Assembly: GCF_009914755.1 (NCBI RefSeq)
Contig: NC_060929.1
Source of the DNA: the human T2T-CHM13v2.0 reference genome, Homo sapiens
DNA length: 64,000 nucleotides
Direction: 5' to 3' (one strand)
Within the stretch, counting starts at the first letter, position 1; each line of letters opens with the position of its first letter. Under the pieces are notes generated by a model. That model saw nothing but the letters and a program-made list of their open reading frames with translations. It was not told the DNA's origin and made no database searches. Position numbers and translations under genes: made by a program. This document shows, piece after piece, positions 51,301-57,353 of this stretch.

Positions 51301-52583
51301 ACTATCATTACAATATTTTAAATGTAAGATGACCACGTCACGATATATTTTATTAAAAGCAATATTTACTATGTTAGTGTAATATAGTAAAGACCATAAT
51401 AAAAAATGAGATTCATATGTAAAACAGAAGTCTTCTATGATAACAATTATAGATAACAAGTGGGAATTTAAATCTACTGTAGAAAGTAACATTTAAACTA
51501 ATAATTTACAATTAAAAGTGAGCATATTATAGATGATTTTAGAGATGAACTACTGGGATTTATGTATGCCCTTCAAGTAGGTACATTAGCATTTTGTATT
51601 CAGTAAGAAATAATTATATAATATCGTGTGTACTGCTAACTAATTCAAAATCACTATAAGTATAAATTTTTCATTTAGAAATTCCCTTTAGTATAAGAAT
51701 ATATGACGAGAGTATTTACAAATCTTATAATTTGTGACATTTGATTTGCAAATAGATTCCCAGTTTGAACTAAAATTAGGCTGCTTTATCTATGGAGGAT
51801 TATCATTGTGAATTATTTTTCTATTTGTTCTACAAATACTCTTTCTTTTTAAATATGTTTTTGATGTTTACACAGAATTCACCTAGATATAAATTAGAAG
51901 AGAAAAGAAGTTATGGCTACAAATTTCAAACCAAGTACTCCAAGAATCAGATATTAGGAAACATAGATGGCTAACAATTTGGATGAGGTGGGGAAACAAT
52001 AAGGAAATGTGCAAAATATTAAAATAATTTGTCTTTTGGAATTATTTTGTTATAGAATTTGTTTTAAAAATAATTTTCTTCACTTATTGTAAATTTGACT
52101 TTATTATATTTTAATAAGCTATTCAACACTTATGTATAAATATCACATAAGTAATTGATATTATATACTAGTTTGGGGTTTCCTTTTTTTAAAAAAAATT
52201 CAATGTCCTATTAAAAATATGTACATATATTGAATCTGTAAATTACTTTGGGCAGTATCACCATTTTCATGATATTGATTCTCCTATCTATGAGCATGGA
52301 ATGTTTTTCCTTTTGTTTGTGTCCTCTCTTATTTTGTTGAGCAGAGGTTTGTAGTTCTCCTTGAAGGGGTCCTTCACATCCCTTGTGAGTTGGATTCCTA
52401 GGTATTTTATTCTTTTTGTAGCAATTGTGAATGGGAGTTCACTCATAATTTGGCTATTTGTCTATTACTTGTGTGTATTCCAGGAATGCTTGTGGGTTTT
52501 GTATATTTATTTTTTATCCTTAGACTTTGCTGAAGTTGCTCATCAGCTTAAGGAGATTTTGGCCTGAGACAATGGGGTTTTCT

Positions 52584-53169
52584 TATTGGGGTGATCAGAC
52601 CCAACACCAGGTCATGGGGGTGACAAAGTCTGTCGGAGTCAAAGGATTGAGAAAAAGACAGTTTGAGAATTAAAGTGGGCACCAGGGGGCCATCGTGTCT
52701 GTGGAGGCTGCAAAGGCCCTGAGCTCTGGGAGCCCACGTTATTTATTGGTAATCCAACAGAGAAACAGGTGGTGAGAACGTGGAGGTCGAACGGGTGCAT
52801 TGCATTAAGCACATGATTTACAGCTGTGATGGTTTCACACTTGCTCTGCTACTTGATAATGGAGAGCAGGTTCTTTTAACTCAACATACAATGGATCCTG
52901 GGAGAGCAAGAAGCAAGGAGCCACCAAGTCTACACACATTCCAGAGCCACAAGCCCCGGATTCTGTCCAAGCCACAATGGATTTTATGCCCTGGGCTTAG
53001 ATGATGGTGCATCAGGGTAGCCTTCCACCCCTTAGCACAGAGCTTGGTGTTCCAAAGGCCACAAGGGGTTTCAGACCCTGGGCCCCGGACATGTTCCAAG
53101 AGTCTTTTACATTATGTCAGACATGCAAGCCCTGCCTCAGCTTCTCCCAACACTCAGATTTTCCCAACA
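52584..53169 (-). repeat. 3' LTR (LTR14-type)
   Basis: Direct repeat of 56303-56891; minus-strand AATAAA at 52742-52747; adjacent to the PPT. Confidence 0.93.
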
Positions 53170-53189
53170 TGCCCCCCTTCTCTTTTTTT
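53170..53189 (-). promoter_or_regulatory. Polypurine tract
   Basis: Minus strand reads AAAAAAAGAGAAGGGGGGCA immediately before the 3' LTR. Confidence 0.9.
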
Positions 53190-53894
53190 GTAAAAGAGAA
53201 GGTATCGTTATTACTAGCATAAAAGGTAACCTCTTTTAATTGAGCAAGGCAATTGCAGGCTGTGCAGCCCTTAATTGCCGGTTGGTGATCCAGCTTCATT
53301 TTTCTTAGCCCTTATTCAAACTGGAGTCACTCTGGTTTGAGTGCTTTCCACATATCTCCCCTTTCCCTTTTACAAGAGGACCCCTAATCCTAGGGGTTGC
53401 AGAAGGATGAAGGTCCGTCTTCTGTAACTTCTTCATGCTGAATAGGGGTGATGATAGTCCTGCCTAACTATTAGGGTCTCTTATATTCAGGGTAGAGAGG
53501 AGCTGAGTCAGAAAGCATTGGTCCATTAAGCATCGTGACTCTGGTTGGTCTTTGTTCCATCTTCGCATTCAGATTCAACTGGCTTATGGCTCATACTGGG
53601 GGAACCCGGTCCATGGTTGGGATCCATGGGTCCCTCCAGTCTCCTGTTCCGTGGTCATACACATCTTGAGGGCATCCTCACGGTTCATTCATCTCCTGCA
53701 AAAATACAAGCATTCCCTCACCCATACATTAGTAAATCTACTGAAACAGAAGCAAAAACTTGTGGCTGTAGCTGGGAGGCTACTGATAATGAGAAACAGG
53801 CCCCTTCTAAGAGAAGGCACAAGGAAAGCAAATCGAGGCTTTTCAAACCTTCAATTCGCACTGTACAGGTGGGTCCACTAGATGCTGTGGCTCC

Positions 53895-54143
53895 TGATAG
53901 ATCTTCGGATGTTTGGTGGGCACCCACATAGGCAGCTGATTGTCACCTGGAGAGACATACACAAATCCTCTTCCTCATATAATTATCTTTCCTTTTTCCC
54001 AGCTCTTTTTATGTGACCACATCTTTTTCTAAGGCCTGTGGCATTAAGATGAGTTTAATAATGGAATGTTTGTGCATCAGCAAAAGCTGCAGACACCAAT
54101 GCATCCACCCTTTGATTAAGTTTAGTTAAAGGACCCACAGGTT
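53895..54143 (-). pseudogene. pol: pol remnants: RNase H end/integrase N-terminus joined to integrase C-terminus (core deleted)
   Basis: Manual translation gives GPLTKLNQRVDALVSAAFADAQTFH..TH, then [30 protein letters not shown], similar to betaretroviral IN. Confidence 0.75.
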
Positions 54144-54326
54144 CTGTTGGAGAGAAAAGAAAGAGCATTTTTATCCTTATCTCCCTCCTCTCTATTCCTT
54201 TTATATTTGCCCTTTGAGCCATAACTAATTTCTATAATTCAGAATGTTCTTGTCTGTCCCTGCAAATCTCTGTTAGTCTTTGCTTTTGTACCTCTTTAGG
54301 GCACTGACCTTATATTGCTAGTCTTC

Positions 54327-54481
54327 ATCTCTCTACTTCTCTCTCTCTACTTACCTCTCTCTACTTACCTCTCTCTCTCTACTTATCTCTCTCTCTACTT
54401 ACCTCTATCTCTGTTTATACTTAGCTCTACTTACTTGTCTCTACTTACTTACTTGTCTCTACTTTACTTACTTATCTCTAC
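54327..54481. repeat. Degenerate minisatellite, unit about CTCTACTTAC(C/T)(TCT)n, 12-19 bp
   Basis: About 9 recurrences of ctctac(tt). Confidence 0.88.
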
Positions 54482-54967
54482 ATCTTTCCTGGAAACCTTT
54501 TTAATGACCTTGGGTAGAGCTCAGAAATCCACCCTTTAAGCTTCAGCAAGAGACAAAACAGGGACCTCGGACCCGGCACCAGATTGAAGGGAACAGGAAG
54601 TGCTCTCCCCTCCCCAAAGCAGGAAAATGAGAGTTTGGCCCTTGCAAATTTCCACTCCACATCAGCGTCATCCTCAATTTCCTGGAATAAACTGTTGATC
54701 ATGGCAATTTTAGCAAAACAATGACCATTGTAACATTATGGACTCCATAAAGAACATAACCAATGTTTTCAATTAATTTGTGGTTATAGTTGATGACCAC
54801 TGATTTCACTTCAGAAAGTCCAAAGATAGCCCAGAACAGTGTCTTAAAACTCTGTTGTGAAGGCTTCATTTTGTTTTTCACCAATGTAGTAGGATTAGAG
54901 GTTGAATATTCCCATCATAAAAGCCACAAACGCCACAATGAACACATTCAGCCCATATCATGCCTAT
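54470..54967 (-). pseudogene. TRPC6: Processed TRPC6 pseudogene fragment (S2 remnant + S5-pore-S6-TRP box) transduced by the provirus
   Basis: Peptides IGMIWAEC / [29 protein letters not shown] / [47 protein letters not shown] / [25 protein letters not shown] / [21 protein letters not shown] match TRPC6. Contains the LFW pore motif and EWKFAR TRP box, one stop and several frameshifts. Confidence 0.95.
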
Positions 54968-55121
54968 GTGCTCATTAAATCTGCAGAGGCAGGTTAACCA
55001 TGAAACCGAAGCTTCAAGATGACTTTACTTGCACTATGCAAAGCAACCCATGATTTATTTTTTCCGGGGACTACTGCCAACCAGGCCTGTGTGTCCATCT
55101 GTAAGCATCCAACAGCAGGTC

Positions 55122-55510
55122 TACTGTACAAATAGGTCTTTTGTACAGACACTTGATTAACCCAATATATAGCCTTTCCTGTTGGATTAGTACTACCAAA
55201 GCCTCCTGTTCTTTTCACTGTGCTGCTTCCCAGCTTTATGTCAACAACTGAGCAATTCTTTCTTCTAGGGAAGCAGACCATGGAGTTGAGCAACTAATAA
55301 CTAATTGAATTTCTCTGGTATAAAAAGAACCAATCATTCCCATATGCACAGTGACACCTCTAGATCTTTCAAGTAATAGACCTACTGTTCCTGAAGGAAA
55401 TGGTCCCCCAACTCCCCTGGGGACCATCTCGGGTGGCTCCCCCAGAAGCAGGGAAATGGGAACTGCACTGCAAAGGTCCACGGCAGCACTGCTTACCACA
55501 GCGGGAGACA
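55122..55510 (-). pseudogene. pro: pro remnant: dUTPase domain and start of protease (truncated before the catalytic DTG)
   Basis: SSAAVDLCS...GTVGLLLERS...YTREIQLVIS; KRTGGFGSTN (dUTPase motif V); AIYWVNQVS..RPICTV. Confidence 0.88.
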
Positions 55511-55599
55511 ATTGTTGCTGTTTGTAAGGGCACTGGCTGTGCCGGATATGCCTCAATTTATTGAGGTGCTGTCTGAATAAACAAGCCTCAGATTCCACT

Positions 55600-56155
55600 G
55601 GGTCTTAGTACTACCAATTGCTCCGGGTTTTAATGTTGCAGCTATAGGAGGGGTAAGTTATGTAGCTAATTCATTTTCTCACCCATTAAGGGGAGAGAGA
55701 GGAGGTGGCCATTCACTTAATTCAGCAGGTGGAGCCAACAGGCTAGTAAAACACACTATTTTTAGTTTCCCTTTCTTTTCTTTAACTTCCTCCAGTTTCT
55801 ATTCCTCACATTCAGAATCTGAAGTTAGTTTTTTACACTCGTCCACCTCTTCCTCATCTGAATCTGTCTCATCATCTGTTTGAAATGGCTCAAGAGCTGC
55901 TTTTATTAGCTCCCACATTGACCAAACTGAGACTGGAATTTTTGCTCCATCTTTATACGCTTTTTAAAAATCTCTGCCAATTCTCTCCCATTCATCCAAC
56001 TCCATAGTCTCTTGTTCTGGGAACCATGGGCAAAACTGCTTTACTGCGCTAAAGAGTGATAACAAATTCTGAGTACCAACTTTCACTCCCCATCTTTGTA
56101 ATAAATGCCTTAAGAAATTTAAACAAGCAGAATGTCTGCTTTCACTTTGTCCCAT
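55600..56155 (-). pseudogene. gag: gag remnant: matrix and acidic pp region (capsid deleted)
   Basis: MGQSESRHSACLNFLRHLLQRWGVKV...FCPWFPEQETMELDEWERIG, a myristoylated betaretroviral MA; stop at 55964. Confidence 0.88.
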
Positions 56156-56279
56156 TGTTACCCTGGTTCTTCTGAGCGCTCAGCTTTCCCGCCGAGCTTC
56201 TTTTAGACATTCGGGTGTCCTTTGACGATGCATCCTTCACTTTCACGTGCTCTTGCATTCCTTCACCGAGGTCTTTGTC

Positions 56280-56298
56280 GCCCCACATTGAGCAGCCA
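56280..56298 (-). promoter_or_regulatory. Primer binding site, tRNA-Lys(CUU)-like, degenerate
   Basis: TGGCTGCTCAATGTGGGGC versus canonical TGGCGCCCAACGTGGGGC, 4 nt inside the 5' LTR. Confidence 0.85.
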
Positions 56299-56302
56299 GG
56301 AA

Positions 56303-56891
56303 TGTTGGTGTGATCAGACCCAACACCAGGTCGTGTGGGTGACAAAGTCCGGTGGAGTCAAAGGATTGAGAAAAAGACAGTTTGAGAGAGAAATGTGGGC
56401 ATCAGGGGGCCATTGCGATTGTGGAGGCTGTGAAGGCCCTGAGCTCTGGGAGTCCACGTTATTTATTGGTAATTCAACAAAGAAACATATGGTGAGAATG
56501 TGGAGGTCCAATGGGTGCATTGTATTAAGCACATGATTTACAGCTGTGATGGTTTAGCATTTGCTCTGCTACTTGAGATAATGGAGAGCAGGTTCTTTTA
56601 ACTCAAGACACAATGGATCCTGGGAGAGCAAGGAGCAAGGAGCCAGCAAGTCTAGACACATTCCAGAGCCACAAATCCTGGATTCTATCCAAGCCATGAG
56701 GGATTTTATGCCCTGGGCTTAGACTATGGTGCATCAGGGTAGCCTTCCACCCTTTAGCACAGAGCTTGGTGTTCCAAAGGCCACAAGGGGTTTTAGACCT
56801 TGGACCTCGAACATGTTCCAAGACTCTTTTACACTATGTCAGACATGCAAGCCCTGCCTCAGCTTCTCCCAACACTCAGCTTTCCCCAACA
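56303..56891 (-). repeat. 5' LTR (LTR14-type)
   Basis: TGTTGG...CCAACA termini; adjacent to the PBS and gag. Confidence 0.94.
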
Positions 56892-57353
56892 TTTTCTAAA
56901 TATACAATCATGTTATCTACAAAGAGAGACAATTTGACTTCCTCTCTTCCTATGTGAATACTCTGTATTTCTTTCTCTTGCCTGATTTCCCTGGACAGAA
57001 CTTCCAATACTATGTTGAATAGGATTGGTGAGAGATGGCATTCTTGTGTTGTGCCAGTTTTCAAAGGGAATGCTTCCAGCTTTTGCCCATTCAGTATGAT
57101 ATTGGCTGTGGGTTTGTCATAAATAGCTCTCATCAATACCGAGTTTATTGAGAGTTTTCAGCATAAAGCGGTGTTGAATTTTATCAAAGGCCTTTACTGC
57201 ATCTATTGAAATAATCATGTGGTTTTTGTCATTTGTTCTGTTTATGTGATGGATTAAGTTTATTGATTTGCATATGTTGAACCAGCCTTGCAACCCATGG
57301 ATGAAGCCGACTTGATCGTGGTGAATAAGCTTTTTAATGTGCTGCTGGATTCA

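What the first reader, a model, noticed from the sequence alone, without database searches (positions are those of the whole stretch)
52584..56891. Endogenous retrovirus that has transduced a host ion-channel mRNA (TRPC6) in place of its protease/RT
Seen: a complete integration signature (two LTRs, TTTTCT TSD, PBS, PPT) with the order gag-MA, dUTPase, host insert, IN remnants and no env. The insert is in the same sense as the virus and encodes TRPC6 S5-pore-S6-TRP box with no introns. It has no poly(A) or TSD of its own, and viral sequence is missing at that position. Inference: it was captured by RT template switching or splicing, as in oncogene-transducing retroviruses, and then copied in trans as a non-autonomous vector. 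Established: from memory, TRPC6 mRNA portions in several HERV-K14I proviruses were reported (Flockerzi et al. 2005, J Virol; verify), so this is probably one member of a known dispersed set.
Basis: partly seen in the sequence, partly recalled or inferred. Interest (0 to 1): 0.85.

Follow-up and report, generated by a model that had tools for sequence, protein, structure and literature searches.

The report
Endogenous retrovirus carrying captured TRPC6 fragment
A 4.3-kb dead retrovirus copy on human chromosome 5 carries a spliced piece of the TRPC6 ion-channel gene that an ancestral virus picked up once and then spread to at least a dozen genomic sites; the phenomenon is already in print and the locus is annotated as pseudogene TRPC6P6.

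Summary
Window 52584-56891 (minus strand) is a defective betaretrovirus-like provirus. It has two LTRs (K2P 0.096), a TTTTCT target-site duplication, a tRNA-Lys primer-binding site and a polypurine tract. It carries intron-less TRPC6 sequence in viral sense.

Genome-wide searches found TRPC6 sequence in 13 distinct LTR-flanked loci. All 12 that reach the 3' host-virus junction share it, and the insertions have different target-site duplications. This means one capture followed by spread in trans.

- The captured RNA began in an intronic cryptic exon ("E0") 2.4 kb upstream of the exon encoding G504. E0 is spliced onto four coding exons (residues 504-800).
- The window copy belongs to a secondary recombinant class ("type A", 7 loci). 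Its insert has a 390-nt internal deletion and lies between two env fragments. A 36-nt E0 scar sits between gag and dUTPase.
- A simpler class ("type B", 5 loci) keeps only LTR, leader, 70 nt of gag, the full insert, an env tail and LTR.

An L1-mediated origin and a TRPC3/TRPC7 origin are rejected. TRPC6 portions in HERV-K14I were reported in 2005 (recalled; the paper could not be read here), so the kind is known. Interest is moderate to low.

The parts
52578..52583 (.). Target-site duplication, left copy (TTTTCT on + strand)
   Evidence: Read directly. Identical 6-mer at 56892-56897, abutting both LTR ends.
52584..53169 (-). 3' LTR (viral sense)
   Evidence: Direct repeat of 56303-56891. 90.6% identity, K2P 0.0956.
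53170..53189 (-). Polypurine tract
   Evidence: Purine run directly upstream of the 3' LTR in viral sense. Conserved in the other copies.
53196..53845 (-). Non-coding viral 3' region downstream of integrase
   Evidence: Homologous to the 3' ends of many TRPC6-less proviruses. Part of it (53236-53535) matches about 40 loci at 83-92%.
53846..53974 (-). Integrase C-terminal domain remnant
   Evidence: Pfam IN_DBD_C E 0.018. Best PDB matches are MMTV integrase C-terminal domains, E 0.16-0.19. Weak.
54009..54134 (-). RNase H C-terminal tail and integrase N-terminal remnant
   Evidence: ORF 54058-54231 matches residues 579-617 of PDB chain 7sr6, which the bank lists only as 'Polymerase' (that it is HERV-K reverse transcriptase is my recall), E 0.013. 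The junction with env is shared by 7 of 7 type A copies.
54135..54281 (-). env SU fragment (3' flank of the cassette)
   Evidence: Homologous to the env ORF of TRPC6-less proviruses L035 and L029. Shared with type B copies.
54282..54473 (-). Viral tandem-repeat (VNTR-like) region
   Evidence: TRF arrays with periods of 14-32. The same repeats occur in TRPC6-less ERV loci. Not present in the TRPC6 gene region that was read.
54474..54942 (-). TRPC6 coding exons: end of the second captured exon, the whole third, and the fourth up to residue ~800. Covers S5, pore, S6 and TRP helix.
   Evidence: 89.2% identity to spliced gene positions 596-1075. PDB TRPC6 residues 671-795. Exon joins are exact. Broken by stops and frameshifts.
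54943..54964 (-). First 22 nt of the TRPC6 exon encoding G504-C510. The 390-nt internal deletion follows it.
   Evidence: 100% match to C11:101486230-101486251. The deletion junction is shared by 7 of 7 type A copies.
54965..55032 (-). 3' part of E0, a cryptic exon from a TRPC6 intron
   Evidence: Matches C11:101488619-101488694. In the gene, E0 ends at a GT donor, and in the provirus it is joined exactly to the next exon.
55033..55121 (-). env SU fragment (5' flank of the cassette)
   Evidence: 87-92% identity to env of L035 and L029. The L035 ORF holding it hits Pfam HERV-K_env_2, E 3e-24.
55122..55571 (-). dUTPase and the first few protease codons
   Evidence: Pfam dUTPase E 7.6e-4 here and E 5.4e-19 in homologous L035.
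55572..55607 (-). 36-nt 'scar' from the 5' part of E0, replacing gag capsid sequence
   Evidence: Only 12 matches in the whole genome at up to 3 mismatches: 7 type A, 3 type B, C19:20.85M and the TRPC6 intron. Provirus L035 has 530 bp including Gag_p24 at this place.
55610..56155 (-). gag 5' part (matrix p10 and downstream), frame broken
   Evidence: Pfam Gag_p10 E 4.9e-16. ATG at 56153-56155.
56280..56298 (-). Primer-binding site for tRNA-Lys
   Evidence: 15 of 18 matches to the complement of the tRNA-Lys(CTT) 3' end taken from this genome.
56303..56891 (-). 5' LTR (viral sense)
56892..56897 (.). Target-site duplication, right copy

Best explanation
This is a fixed, dead, non-autonomous provirus of a lysine-tRNA-primed betaretrovirus-like ERV family. 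It carries part of a spliced TRPC6 transcript.

Shown:
- One ancestral chimera joined viral gag codon ~23 to an intronic TRPC6 cryptic exon (E0). E0 was already spliced to four coding exons (residues 504-800).
- Exon four was joined, 9 nt before its end, to a viral tandem-repeat region upstream of an env remnant.
- This arrangement survives in 'type B' copies. They keep only LTR, PBS, leader, 70 nt of gag, the insert, an env tail, PPT and LTR.
- The chimera lacks gag-pro-pol, yet it integrated repeatedly with separate target-site duplications.
- The window copy is one of 7 'type A' proviruses that share six further breakpoints: gag|E0 scar, E0 scar|dUTPase, dUTPase-PR|env, env|E0, a 390-nt deletion inside TRPC6, and env|RNase H tail.

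Inferred:
- The junctions arose by reverse-transcriptase template switching between co-packaged RNAs. Short microhomologies of 2-7 nt sit at four of the junctions I inspected.
- The 5' capture started in one of two ways: from a provirus in that TRPC6 intron with read-through and cryptic splicing, or from a TRPC6 transcript beginning at E0.
- Spread relied on helper virus proteins supplied in trans.
- The insert is now a decaying passenger with no function.
For: Anatomy of the window copy.

TRPC6 origin:
- The spliced gene sequence (E0 185 nt plus exons of 234, 265, 196 and 195 nt, total 1075 nt) aligns without a break to copy X:154.03M at 92.75%.
- The window copy matches gene positions 18-53 (100%), 106-205 (85%) and 596-1075 (89.2%).
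- Splice-site motifs sit at each exon edge in the gene.
- The first captured coding exon encodes residues 505-581 of TRPC6, by a PDB match.

Single capture:
- The 3' junction is present in 12 of 15 loci probed: 7 of 7 type A, 4 of 5 type B, and C18:72.64M. The 3 misses lack that exon altogether.
- A 1-nt insertion near gene position 1038 is seen in 11 of the 12 copies that cover it (placed at 1038-1040); C5:23.80M is the exception.

Class-specific junctions:
- The gag|E0 junction is in 5 of 5 type B loci plus C19:20.85M.
- Type A junctions are in 6 of 7 copies and 7 of 7 copies. The seventh copy's scar lies outside the held locus but is found.

Independent integrations:
- Of 9 copies with an LTR pair, the TSD is a clean 6 of 6 in five, 5 of 6 in two and imperfect in one. 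One copy has a truncated LTR. All differ from each other.

Tree: type A forms one clade (99/98 support) with a star-like shape and terminal branches of about 0.03 (12 rows).

E0 is host sequence: its 36-nt core is single-copy outside these proviruses, and no viral sequence lies within 4 kb upstream of it in the intron.
Against: - The family name could not be tested, because no Repbase/Dfam library is available here.
- The template-switch mechanism and the helper virus are inferences from sequence anatomy.
- The order of the recombination steps that made type A cannot be resolved. Type B monophyly is weak (59/40).
- No primate orthologues could be examined, so the age rests on LTR divergence and recalled rates.
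- The tandem-repeat block between TRPC6 and env is called viral because it recurs in TRPC6-less ERV loci. Those loci are structurally heterogeneous, and I did not fully resolve them.
- Whole-genome searches score only the best candidates, so copy counts are lower bounds.
Confidence: 0.9

Rival explanations
1. An L1-mediated processed TRPC6 pseudogene inserted into an already integrated provirus, and the other copies arose by DNA duplication.
For: The insert is intron-less. TRPC6P6 is annotated simply as a pseudogene (hub table).
Against: - The insert has no poly(A) tract and no TSD at its edges.
- It ends at residue ~800 of 931, 9 nt before the end of an internal exon.
- It starts with intronic sequence.
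- The same junctions occur in 12 loci on 8 chromosomes, each with its own proviral TSD.
Confidence: 0.01
2. Types A and B stem from two independent captures of TRPC6 RNA.
For: Their 5' host-virus junctions differ: env|E0 at gene position ~104 in type A, gag|E0 at position 1 in type B.
Against: - The 3' junction is identical in both types.
- A 1-nt insertion near gene position 1038 is common to both types (11 of 12 covering copies).
- Both types use the same unusual cryptic exon E0.
- Type A also keeps a scar from the 5' part of E0 that is otherwise found only in type B.
Confidence: 0.03
3. The TRPC6 fragment was kept because it does something, for example a truncated channel subunit or a regulatory RNA, rather than being a passenger.
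For: E0 supplies an in-frame ATG 16 codons upstream of G504. Copy X:154.03M still has a 308-codon open frame.
Against: - The window copy has 4 in-frame stops in 171 codons and several frameshifts. All type A copies lack 130 codons and carry an 8-nt deletion.
- An open frame of that length after this much neutral change is not unusual: P = 0.10-0.41 in 5000 simulations.
- A shared 1-nt frameshift is present in nearly all copies (11 of the 12 that cover it).
Confidence: 0.04
4. E0 in the TRPC6 intron is a relic left by the virus (a progenitor provirus remnant or gene conversion), not native host sequence.
For: The first ~54 nt of E0 also occur at a gag-deletion junction in the TRPC6-less provirus C19:20.85M.
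Against: - No LTR, gag or other viral match lies within 4 kb upstream or 2.4 kb downstream of E0.
- E0 ends at a GT donor and is joined in the proviruses exactly to the next exon's acceptor. This requires E0 to have been upstream of that exon in a primary transcript.
- The provirus L035 lacks the 36-nt core.
- C19:20.85M is more simply a back-recombinant of the chimera with a helper genome at a 7-nt microhomology.
Confidence: 0.07

Closest known systems
TRPC6-bearing HERV-K14I proviruses (Flockerzi et al. 2005, J Virol 79:2941; content recalled from the abstract. Only the title was seen, in the reference list of PMC6112702)
   Same: LTR-flanked, mostly env-less class II provirus carrying part of the TRPC6 mRNA, present in several copies. 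The window locus is annotated TRPC6P6.
   Different: I know of no difference in kind. I could not read the paper. I therefore cannot say whether it reports the intronic exon E0, the two structural classes, the E0 scars or the env flanks.
Acutely transforming (oncogene-transducing) retroviruses and the read-through / non-homologous recombination model of capture (recalled textbook knowledge)
   Same: Spliced host sequence in viral sense. Loss of replicative genes. LTR, PBS, leader and PPT retained. Junctions with short microhomology. Dependence on a helper virus.
   Different: - This chimera spread in the germ line and became fixed at 13 or more loci.
- The cargo is an internal fragment of a channel gene with no sign of a selectable function.
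- The copies have since decayed.
Recombinant ERVs such as recKoRV (PMC6112702; abstract and passages seen)
   Same: A defective recombinant genome formed early, by recombination at sites of limited homology, then remobilised to several loci.
   Different: The partner there is another retroelement. Here it is a cellular gene transcript.
L1-made processed pseudogenes
   Same: Intron-less copy of a cellular mRNA that is annotated as a pseudogene.
   Different: - No poly(A) tract and no TSD of its own.
- The insert is an internal mRNA segment.
- It lies inside a provirus and was copied together with it.

Membership tests
Lysine-tRNA-primed betaretrovirus-like ERV (HERV-K supergroup, class II) | Two LTRs with TG..CA inverted ends, flanked by a 6-bp target-site duplication | tested here: met
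   LTRs 52584-53169 and 56303-56891. TTTTCT on both sides. One TG is mutated to TA.
Lysine-tRNA-primed betaretrovirus-like ERV (HERV-K supergroup, class II) | PBS complementary to the 3' end of tRNA-Lys | tested here: met
   15 of 18 matches plus one inserted base, against a tRNA-Lys(CTT) gene from this genome. Sister copies reach 17 of 18.
Lysine-tRNA-primed betaretrovirus-like ERV (HERV-K supergroup, class II) | Betaretroviral gene content: Gag p10 matrix, and dUTPase at the start of pro | tested here: met
   Gag_p10 E 4.9e-16 and dUTPase E 7.6e-4 in the window. dUTPase E 5.4e-19 followed by the start of RVP in homologous L035.
HERV-K14I / HML-1 with LTR14-type LTRs (Repbase/Dfam names) | Best match of the LTRs and internal region to the curated HERVK14-int / LTR14 consensus sequences | not testable with these tools
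No repeat library is available.
Transducing defective retrovirus | Host sequence in viral sense with introns removed | tested here: met
   The four joins of the capture (E0-exon, then three exon-exon) lie exactly at the gene's splice sites; the window copy itself keeps three of them, the fourth lying inside its 390-nt deletion. Insert and virus are both on the minus strand.
Transducing defective retrovirus | Replicative genes lost while cis-acting elements (LTRs, PBS, leader, PPT) are kept | tested here: met
   Capsid, nucleocapsid, most of protease, RT and the integrase core are absent. LTRs, PBS and PPT are present.
Transducing defective retrovirus | Propagation after capture: the same host-virus junction at several independent integration sites | tested here: met
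   The 3' junction is in 12 loci. The TSDs are distinct.
Transducing defective retrovirus | The cargo confers a selectable phenotype (as an oncogene does) | not testable with these tools
   There is no sequence sign of selection. It would need expression and functional assays.
L1-mediated processed pseudogene | 3' poly(A) tract, a flanking 7-20 bp TSD, and coverage of the mRNA 3' end | tested here: not met
   The insert ends at residue ~800 of 931, inside an exon. It is followed by a viral repeat, not a poly(A) tract, and has no TSD.
TRPC6 (versus TRPC3 / TRPC7) as source gene | Highest similarity to TRPC6 at protein and DNA level, and exon-by-exon colinearity with the TRPC6 locus | tested here: met
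   - TRPC6 scores 88 and 107 bits; TRPC3 scores 77 and 67 bits.
- TRPC6 exons on C11 match at 89-93%.
- The only other TRPC-like genomic hit is 72% identical, at C5:136.75M. I take this to be TRPC7 from its position (recalled).

The most novel reading that the evidence does not exclude
The human genome preserves a stepwise fossil record of how a germ-line retrovirus became a natural 'minimal vector' and then reshuffled its cargo.

1. Capture began at an intronic cryptic exon of TRPC6. That would be either the footprint of a progenitor provirus sitting in that intron or an unannotated alternative first exon.
2. The primary chimera kept only LTR, PBS, leader, 70 nt of gag, an env tail, PPT and LTR.
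3. Microhomology-guided template switches with helper genomes moved the cargo into a different viral backbone (type A, including this window).
4. Host-derived sequence also passed back into a TRPC6-less, more complete provirus (C19:20.85M).

If the 2005 paper did not describe E0, the scars and the two classes, this anatomy is new detail on a known phenomenon.
Probability: 0.35. Interest if true: 0.5.

Novelty: already known. Interest (0 to 1): 0.33.

Why it matters
Capture of cellular genes by retroviruses is known mainly from acutely transforming viruses isolated from tumours. Fixed germ-line examples in humans are rare, and here all the intermediates can be compared side by side.

This set shows three things:
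- What minimal cis-acting sequence was enough for repeated mobilisation in trans.
- That the recombination junctions use 2-7 nt microhomologies.
- That a host fragment can move between viral backbones.

For annotation, the TRPC6P pseudogenes are ERV cargo, not L1 retrocopies. The TRPC6-derived span in this window is wider than the annotated 54449-54944 on one side (it reaches 55032), and it includes a separate 36-nt piece. None of this changes the basic picture, which was published in 2005.

Tried and rejected
I used stop-to-stop pieces instead.
- The 2005 paper could not be opened by DOI or PMC id.
- Eight full-text searches found no open paper that discusses TRPC6 inside an ERV. The two candidates I opened are about other things: TRPC6 expression in colorectal cancer, and a mouse IAP in Trpc6.
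I worked from the ~3-4 kb loci that the searches returned, plus small fetches.
- I first suspected that the tandem repeat after the insert, whose unit resembles a 5' splice site, was expanded TRPC6 intron. I rejected this because the repeat and its neighbouring 45-nt units occur in TRPC6-less ERV loci and are contiguous with viral sequence in C19:20.85M.
- I first read window 55033-55121 as a protease active-site remnant. I rejected this because it is env SU.
- I first took the 36-nt motif at 55572-55607 for viral sequence. I rejected this because of its genome-wide distribution and its absence from provirus L035.
- I looked for a progenitor provirus in the TRPC6 intron: none within 4 kb upstream of E0.
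- The empty-site check of the L1 flanks was inconclusive. No single L1 copy in the window spans both flanks.
- The first two loci taken for a tRNA-Lys gene held none. Two others did.
- Open-frame retention in the X-linked copy was tested by simulation and is not significant.

Full report
**1. What is in the window**

All positions are window coordinates.

- Two direct repeats lie at 52584-53169 and 56303-56891. They are 90.6% identical over 588 columns, K2P 0.0956.
- Each repeat begins TGTTGGG (one is mutated to TATTGGG) and ends CCAACA when read on the minus strand.
- A perfect 6-bp duplication, TTTTCT on the plus strand, abuts the repeats at 52578-52583 and 56892-56897.
- Read on the minus strand, the upstream LTR is followed after 4 nt by a primer-binding site at 56280-56298. 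I took a tRNA-Lys(CTT) gene from this genome. The complement of its last 15 nt plus CCA matches the window at 15 of 18 positions, with one inserted base. Sister copies reach 17 of 18.
- A polypurine tract (53170-53189) abuts the downstream LTR.

**2. Viral content**

- Stop-to-stop pieces of the minus strand give Gag_p10 (55967-56179, E 4.9e-16), dUTPase (55239-55604, E 7.6e-4) and a weak integrase C-terminal hit (53846-53974, E 0.018).
- PDB searches add an RNase H C-terminal tail (PDB chain 7sr6, listed as 'Polymerase'; that it is HERV-K RT is my recall; residues 579-617, E 0.013). The best hits for the integrase piece are MMTV integrase C-terminal domains, though weak (E 0.16).
- Capsid, nucleocapsid, nearly all of protease, RT and the integrase core are missing.
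- For comparison I fetched a TRPC6-less relative, L035 at C2:106.45M. It has Gag_p24 (E 1.3e-30), dUTPase (E 5.4e-19), the start of protease and an env ORF (HERV-K_env_2, E 3e-24).
- Against L035 and a second relative (L029, C19:54.49M), window 55033-55121 and 54135-54281 are two separated pieces of env SU. In those relatives the two pieces lie 375 bp apart.

**3. The host part**

- Two open pieces match human TRPC6 residues 671-721 and 724-795. TRPC6 scores 88 and 107 bits; TRPC3 scores 77 and 67 bits.
- The window's own genome could be searched. It is a human assembly, and the window is C5:24800001-24864000.
- The TRPC6 gene on C11 matches exon by exon at 89-93%. The only other TRPC-like hit is 72% identical, at C5:136.75M. 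I take that to be TRPC7 from its position (recalled).
- I then used a longer relative (copy X:154.03M) as query and read the gene directly. The captured RNA has five pieces:
  - a 185-nt stretch I call E0 (C11:101488615-101488799);
  - four consecutive coding exons of 234, 265, 196 and 204 nt; the last is used only up to 9 nt before its end.
- E0 is not a coding exon. It lies in the intron 2.4 kb upstream of the exon that encodes G504. In the gene it ends ...GCAG followed by GTGGGT. In the proviruses it is joined exactly to the first base of the next exon.
- The next three joins are also exact.
- The first coding exon is TRPC6 residues 505-581 by PDB match. The insert ends at about residue 800 of 931.
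- The spliced reference, 1075 nt, aligns to X:154.03M without a break at 92.75%.
- The window copy holds gene positions 18-53 (100%), 106-205 (85%, with a 12-nt gap) and 596-1075 (89.2%). It lacks 390 nt, about residues 511-640.
- It carries 4 stops in 171 comparable codons and several frameshifts.
- There is no poly(A) tract and no duplication at the insert edges.

**4. Copies elsewhere**

Searches found TRPC6 coding sequence in 13 distinct LTR-flanked loci, or 15 counting the Y copies of two loci at the very end of the X contig (PAR2 by my recall of its position). These searches score only the best candidates, so counts are lower bounds. The loci fall into classes.

- Type A, 7 loci: the window, C5:23.80M, C4:188.25M, C9:113.30M, C7:137.57M, C7:30.68M and C11:121.26M. 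All have the window's full arrangement.
- Type B, 5 loci: X:154.03M, X:154.21M, C5:146.26M, C7:151.79M, and C12:46.86M (5' part only). Their order is LTR, PBS, leader, the first 70 nt of gag, whole E0, undeleted TRPC6, tandem repeat, env tail, PPT, LTR.
- C18:72.64M holds only the last TRPC6 exon piece plus the repeat.

Two further loci are related without TRPC6 coding sequence. C19:20.85M has the type B gag|E0 junction and ~54 nt of E0, then continues into dUTPase and pol remnants. C11:24.35M has only the 3' half of type A.

**5. Junctions**

I probed every junction in every held locus.

- The 3' host-virus junction (TRPC6 ...GATGCAGAG followed by the repeat unit) is present in 12 of 15 loci: 7 of 7 type A, 4 of 5 type B, and C18. 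The three misses lack that exon altogether.
- A 1-nt insertion near gene position 1038 is seen in 11 of the 12 copies that cover it (placed at 1038-1040); C5:23.80M is the exception.
- The gag|E0 junction is in 5 of 5 type B loci and in C19:20.85M, and in 0 of 7 type A.
- The type A junctions are shared by all type A copies that cover them:
  - gag|E0 scar and E0 scar|dUTPase: 6 of 7 (the seventh copy has a ~6-kb insertion there, but its scar is found);
  - dUTPase-PR|env, env|E0, the 390-nt deletion and env|RNase H tail: 7 of 7 each.
- The 36-nt E0 scar at window 55572-55607 occurs only 12 times in 3.1 Gb at up to 3 mismatches: 7 type A, 3 type B, C19:20.85M and the TRPC6 intron. L035 has 530 bp of capsid-coding gag in its place.
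- No viral sequence lies within 4 kb upstream of E0 in the intron.
- Short microhomologies sit at four of the junctions I inspected:

| Junction | Microhomology |
|---|---|
| E0 \| dUTPase | GGGCCCC |
| TRPC6 \| repeat | AGAG |
| gag \| scar | GGTG |
| gag \| E0 | GA..GGG |

**6. Independent integrations and age**

- Nine copies have both LTRs in hand. The TSD is a clean 6 of 6 in five (window, C4, C9, C7:137M, X:154.21M) and 5 of 6 in two (C11:121M, X:154.03M). It is imperfect in C7:151M and not callable in C5:146M, whose LTR is truncated. All differ from one another. C5:23.80M lacks most of its 3' LTR.
- The two loci at the end of the X contig have different TSDs.
- LTR-LTR K2P ranges from 0.058 to 0.096 across the nine copies. 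The window's value, 0.0956, is the highest.
- With recalled rates of 2.2e-9 and 1.3e-9 per site per year, the window value gives about 22 to 37 Myr and the set gives about 13 to 37 Myr. I could not check orthologous sites.
- I built a tree of the shared TRPC6 columns: 569 columns, 12 rows. The C12 and C18 partials and the Y duplicates were left out. It puts type A in one clade (99/98) with a star-like shape and terminal branches near 0.03. Type B is not resolved as a clade (59/40).

**7. Reading**

- Shown: one capture of a spliced TRPC6 transcript in viral sense; loss of the replicative genes; repeated reintegration. The window copy is a later mosaic in which the cargo, still carrying env flanks, sits between dUTPase and the RNase H tail.
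- Inferred: the junctions were made by reverse-transcriptase template switching between co-packaged RNAs, and helper viruses supplied the proteins.
- The start at E0 fits two scenarios. Either a provirus sat in that intron, with read-through and use of the cryptic donor, or a TRPC6 transcript began at E0 and reverse transcriptase switched templates on reaching its 5' end. These tools cannot decide between them.
- A mouse IAP in a Trpc6 intron that yields chimeric transcripts (PMC3088655, passages seen) is a present-day picture of the first scenario's first step. It is only an analogy.
- Function: E0 supplies an in-frame ATG 16 codons before G504, and X:154.03M keeps a 308-codon open frame. Simulation gives P = 0.10-0.41 for that by chance. 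All type A copies are broken, so I read the cargo as a passenger.

**8. What is known**

[quoted passage not shown] I saw it in the reference list of PMC6112702. Its text is not held.
- From memory, its abstract says that several HERV-K14I proviruses harbour TRPC6 mRNA portions.
- No open paper found discusses this.
- The hub table names 54449-54944 as TRPC6P6.

The finding is real and correctly interpreted, but it belongs to a known set. The family name itself (HERV-K14I, LTR14) is not tested here. What may go beyond the literature is the anatomy: the intronic exon, the two classes, the E0 scars and the env-flanked cassette. I cannot tell whether that is new without the paper.

Noticed in passing
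L018 (C19:20847039-20850424): A TRPC6-less provirus that carries the type B gag|E0 junction and ~54 nt of TRPC6-intron sequence, then continues into dUTPase, pol remnants, the tandem repeat and env. It looks like a back-recombinant of the chimera with a helper genome, so host-derived sequence re-entered a more complete viral backbone.
   Followed up: partly
Type A copies: window and C9:113.30M versus C11:121.26M, C4:188.25M, C7:137.57M, C5:23.80M: There are two LTR forms within the one type A clade: ~585 nt, and ~410-430 nt lacking about positions 63-224 of the window LTR. Both LTRs of a given provirus have the same form. This implies LTR exchange or a repeated deletion during spread.
   Followed up: partly
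L007 / L011 (X:154.03M and X:154.21M, with Y copies at 62.23M and 62.41M that are identical (154.03M locus) or near-identical, ~96% to the query like their X counterpart (154.21M locus)): Two type B copies lie 184 kb apart at the very end of the X contig (PAR2 by my recall of its position). They have different TSDs, yet they share a long common branch (0.022) and very short tips. One retains a 308-codon open frame through E0 and TRPC6, which is not significant by simulation. Possible gene conversion between them.
   Followed up: partly
window 54282-54473; also C13:55.49M (L036), C1:160.75M, C11:19.10M, C12:69.18M, C10:109.62M, and five sites at C5:70.5-71.8M: A VNTR-like block (14-16-nt and ~45-nt units) recurs in other ERV loci. 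Its position relative to the viral 3' region varies. L036 carries a different LTR type after the same 3' region. The architecture of these elements was not resolved.
   Followed up: partly
window 52175-52583 and 56898-57134: Both flanks of the provirus look like one older L1 element (my recall of L1 sequence; the flanks overlap NCBI-masked stretches). The provirus appears to have been inserted into it in the opposite orientation. No single L1 copy in the window spans both flanks, so the empty-site check was inconclusive.
   Followed up: partly
window copy and C5:23.80M (L003): These two chromosome 5 type A copies, 1.05 Mb apart, share a 7-nt deletion at gene position 837. They are weakly paired in the tree (52/73), yet they have different LTR forms.
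   Followed up: no
TRPC6 intron, C11:101488615-101488799 (L032): E0 has an in-frame ATG 16 codons upstream of G504 and a usable GT donor. It could be an unannotated alternative first exon of TRPC6. No expression data are available here.
   Followed up: no
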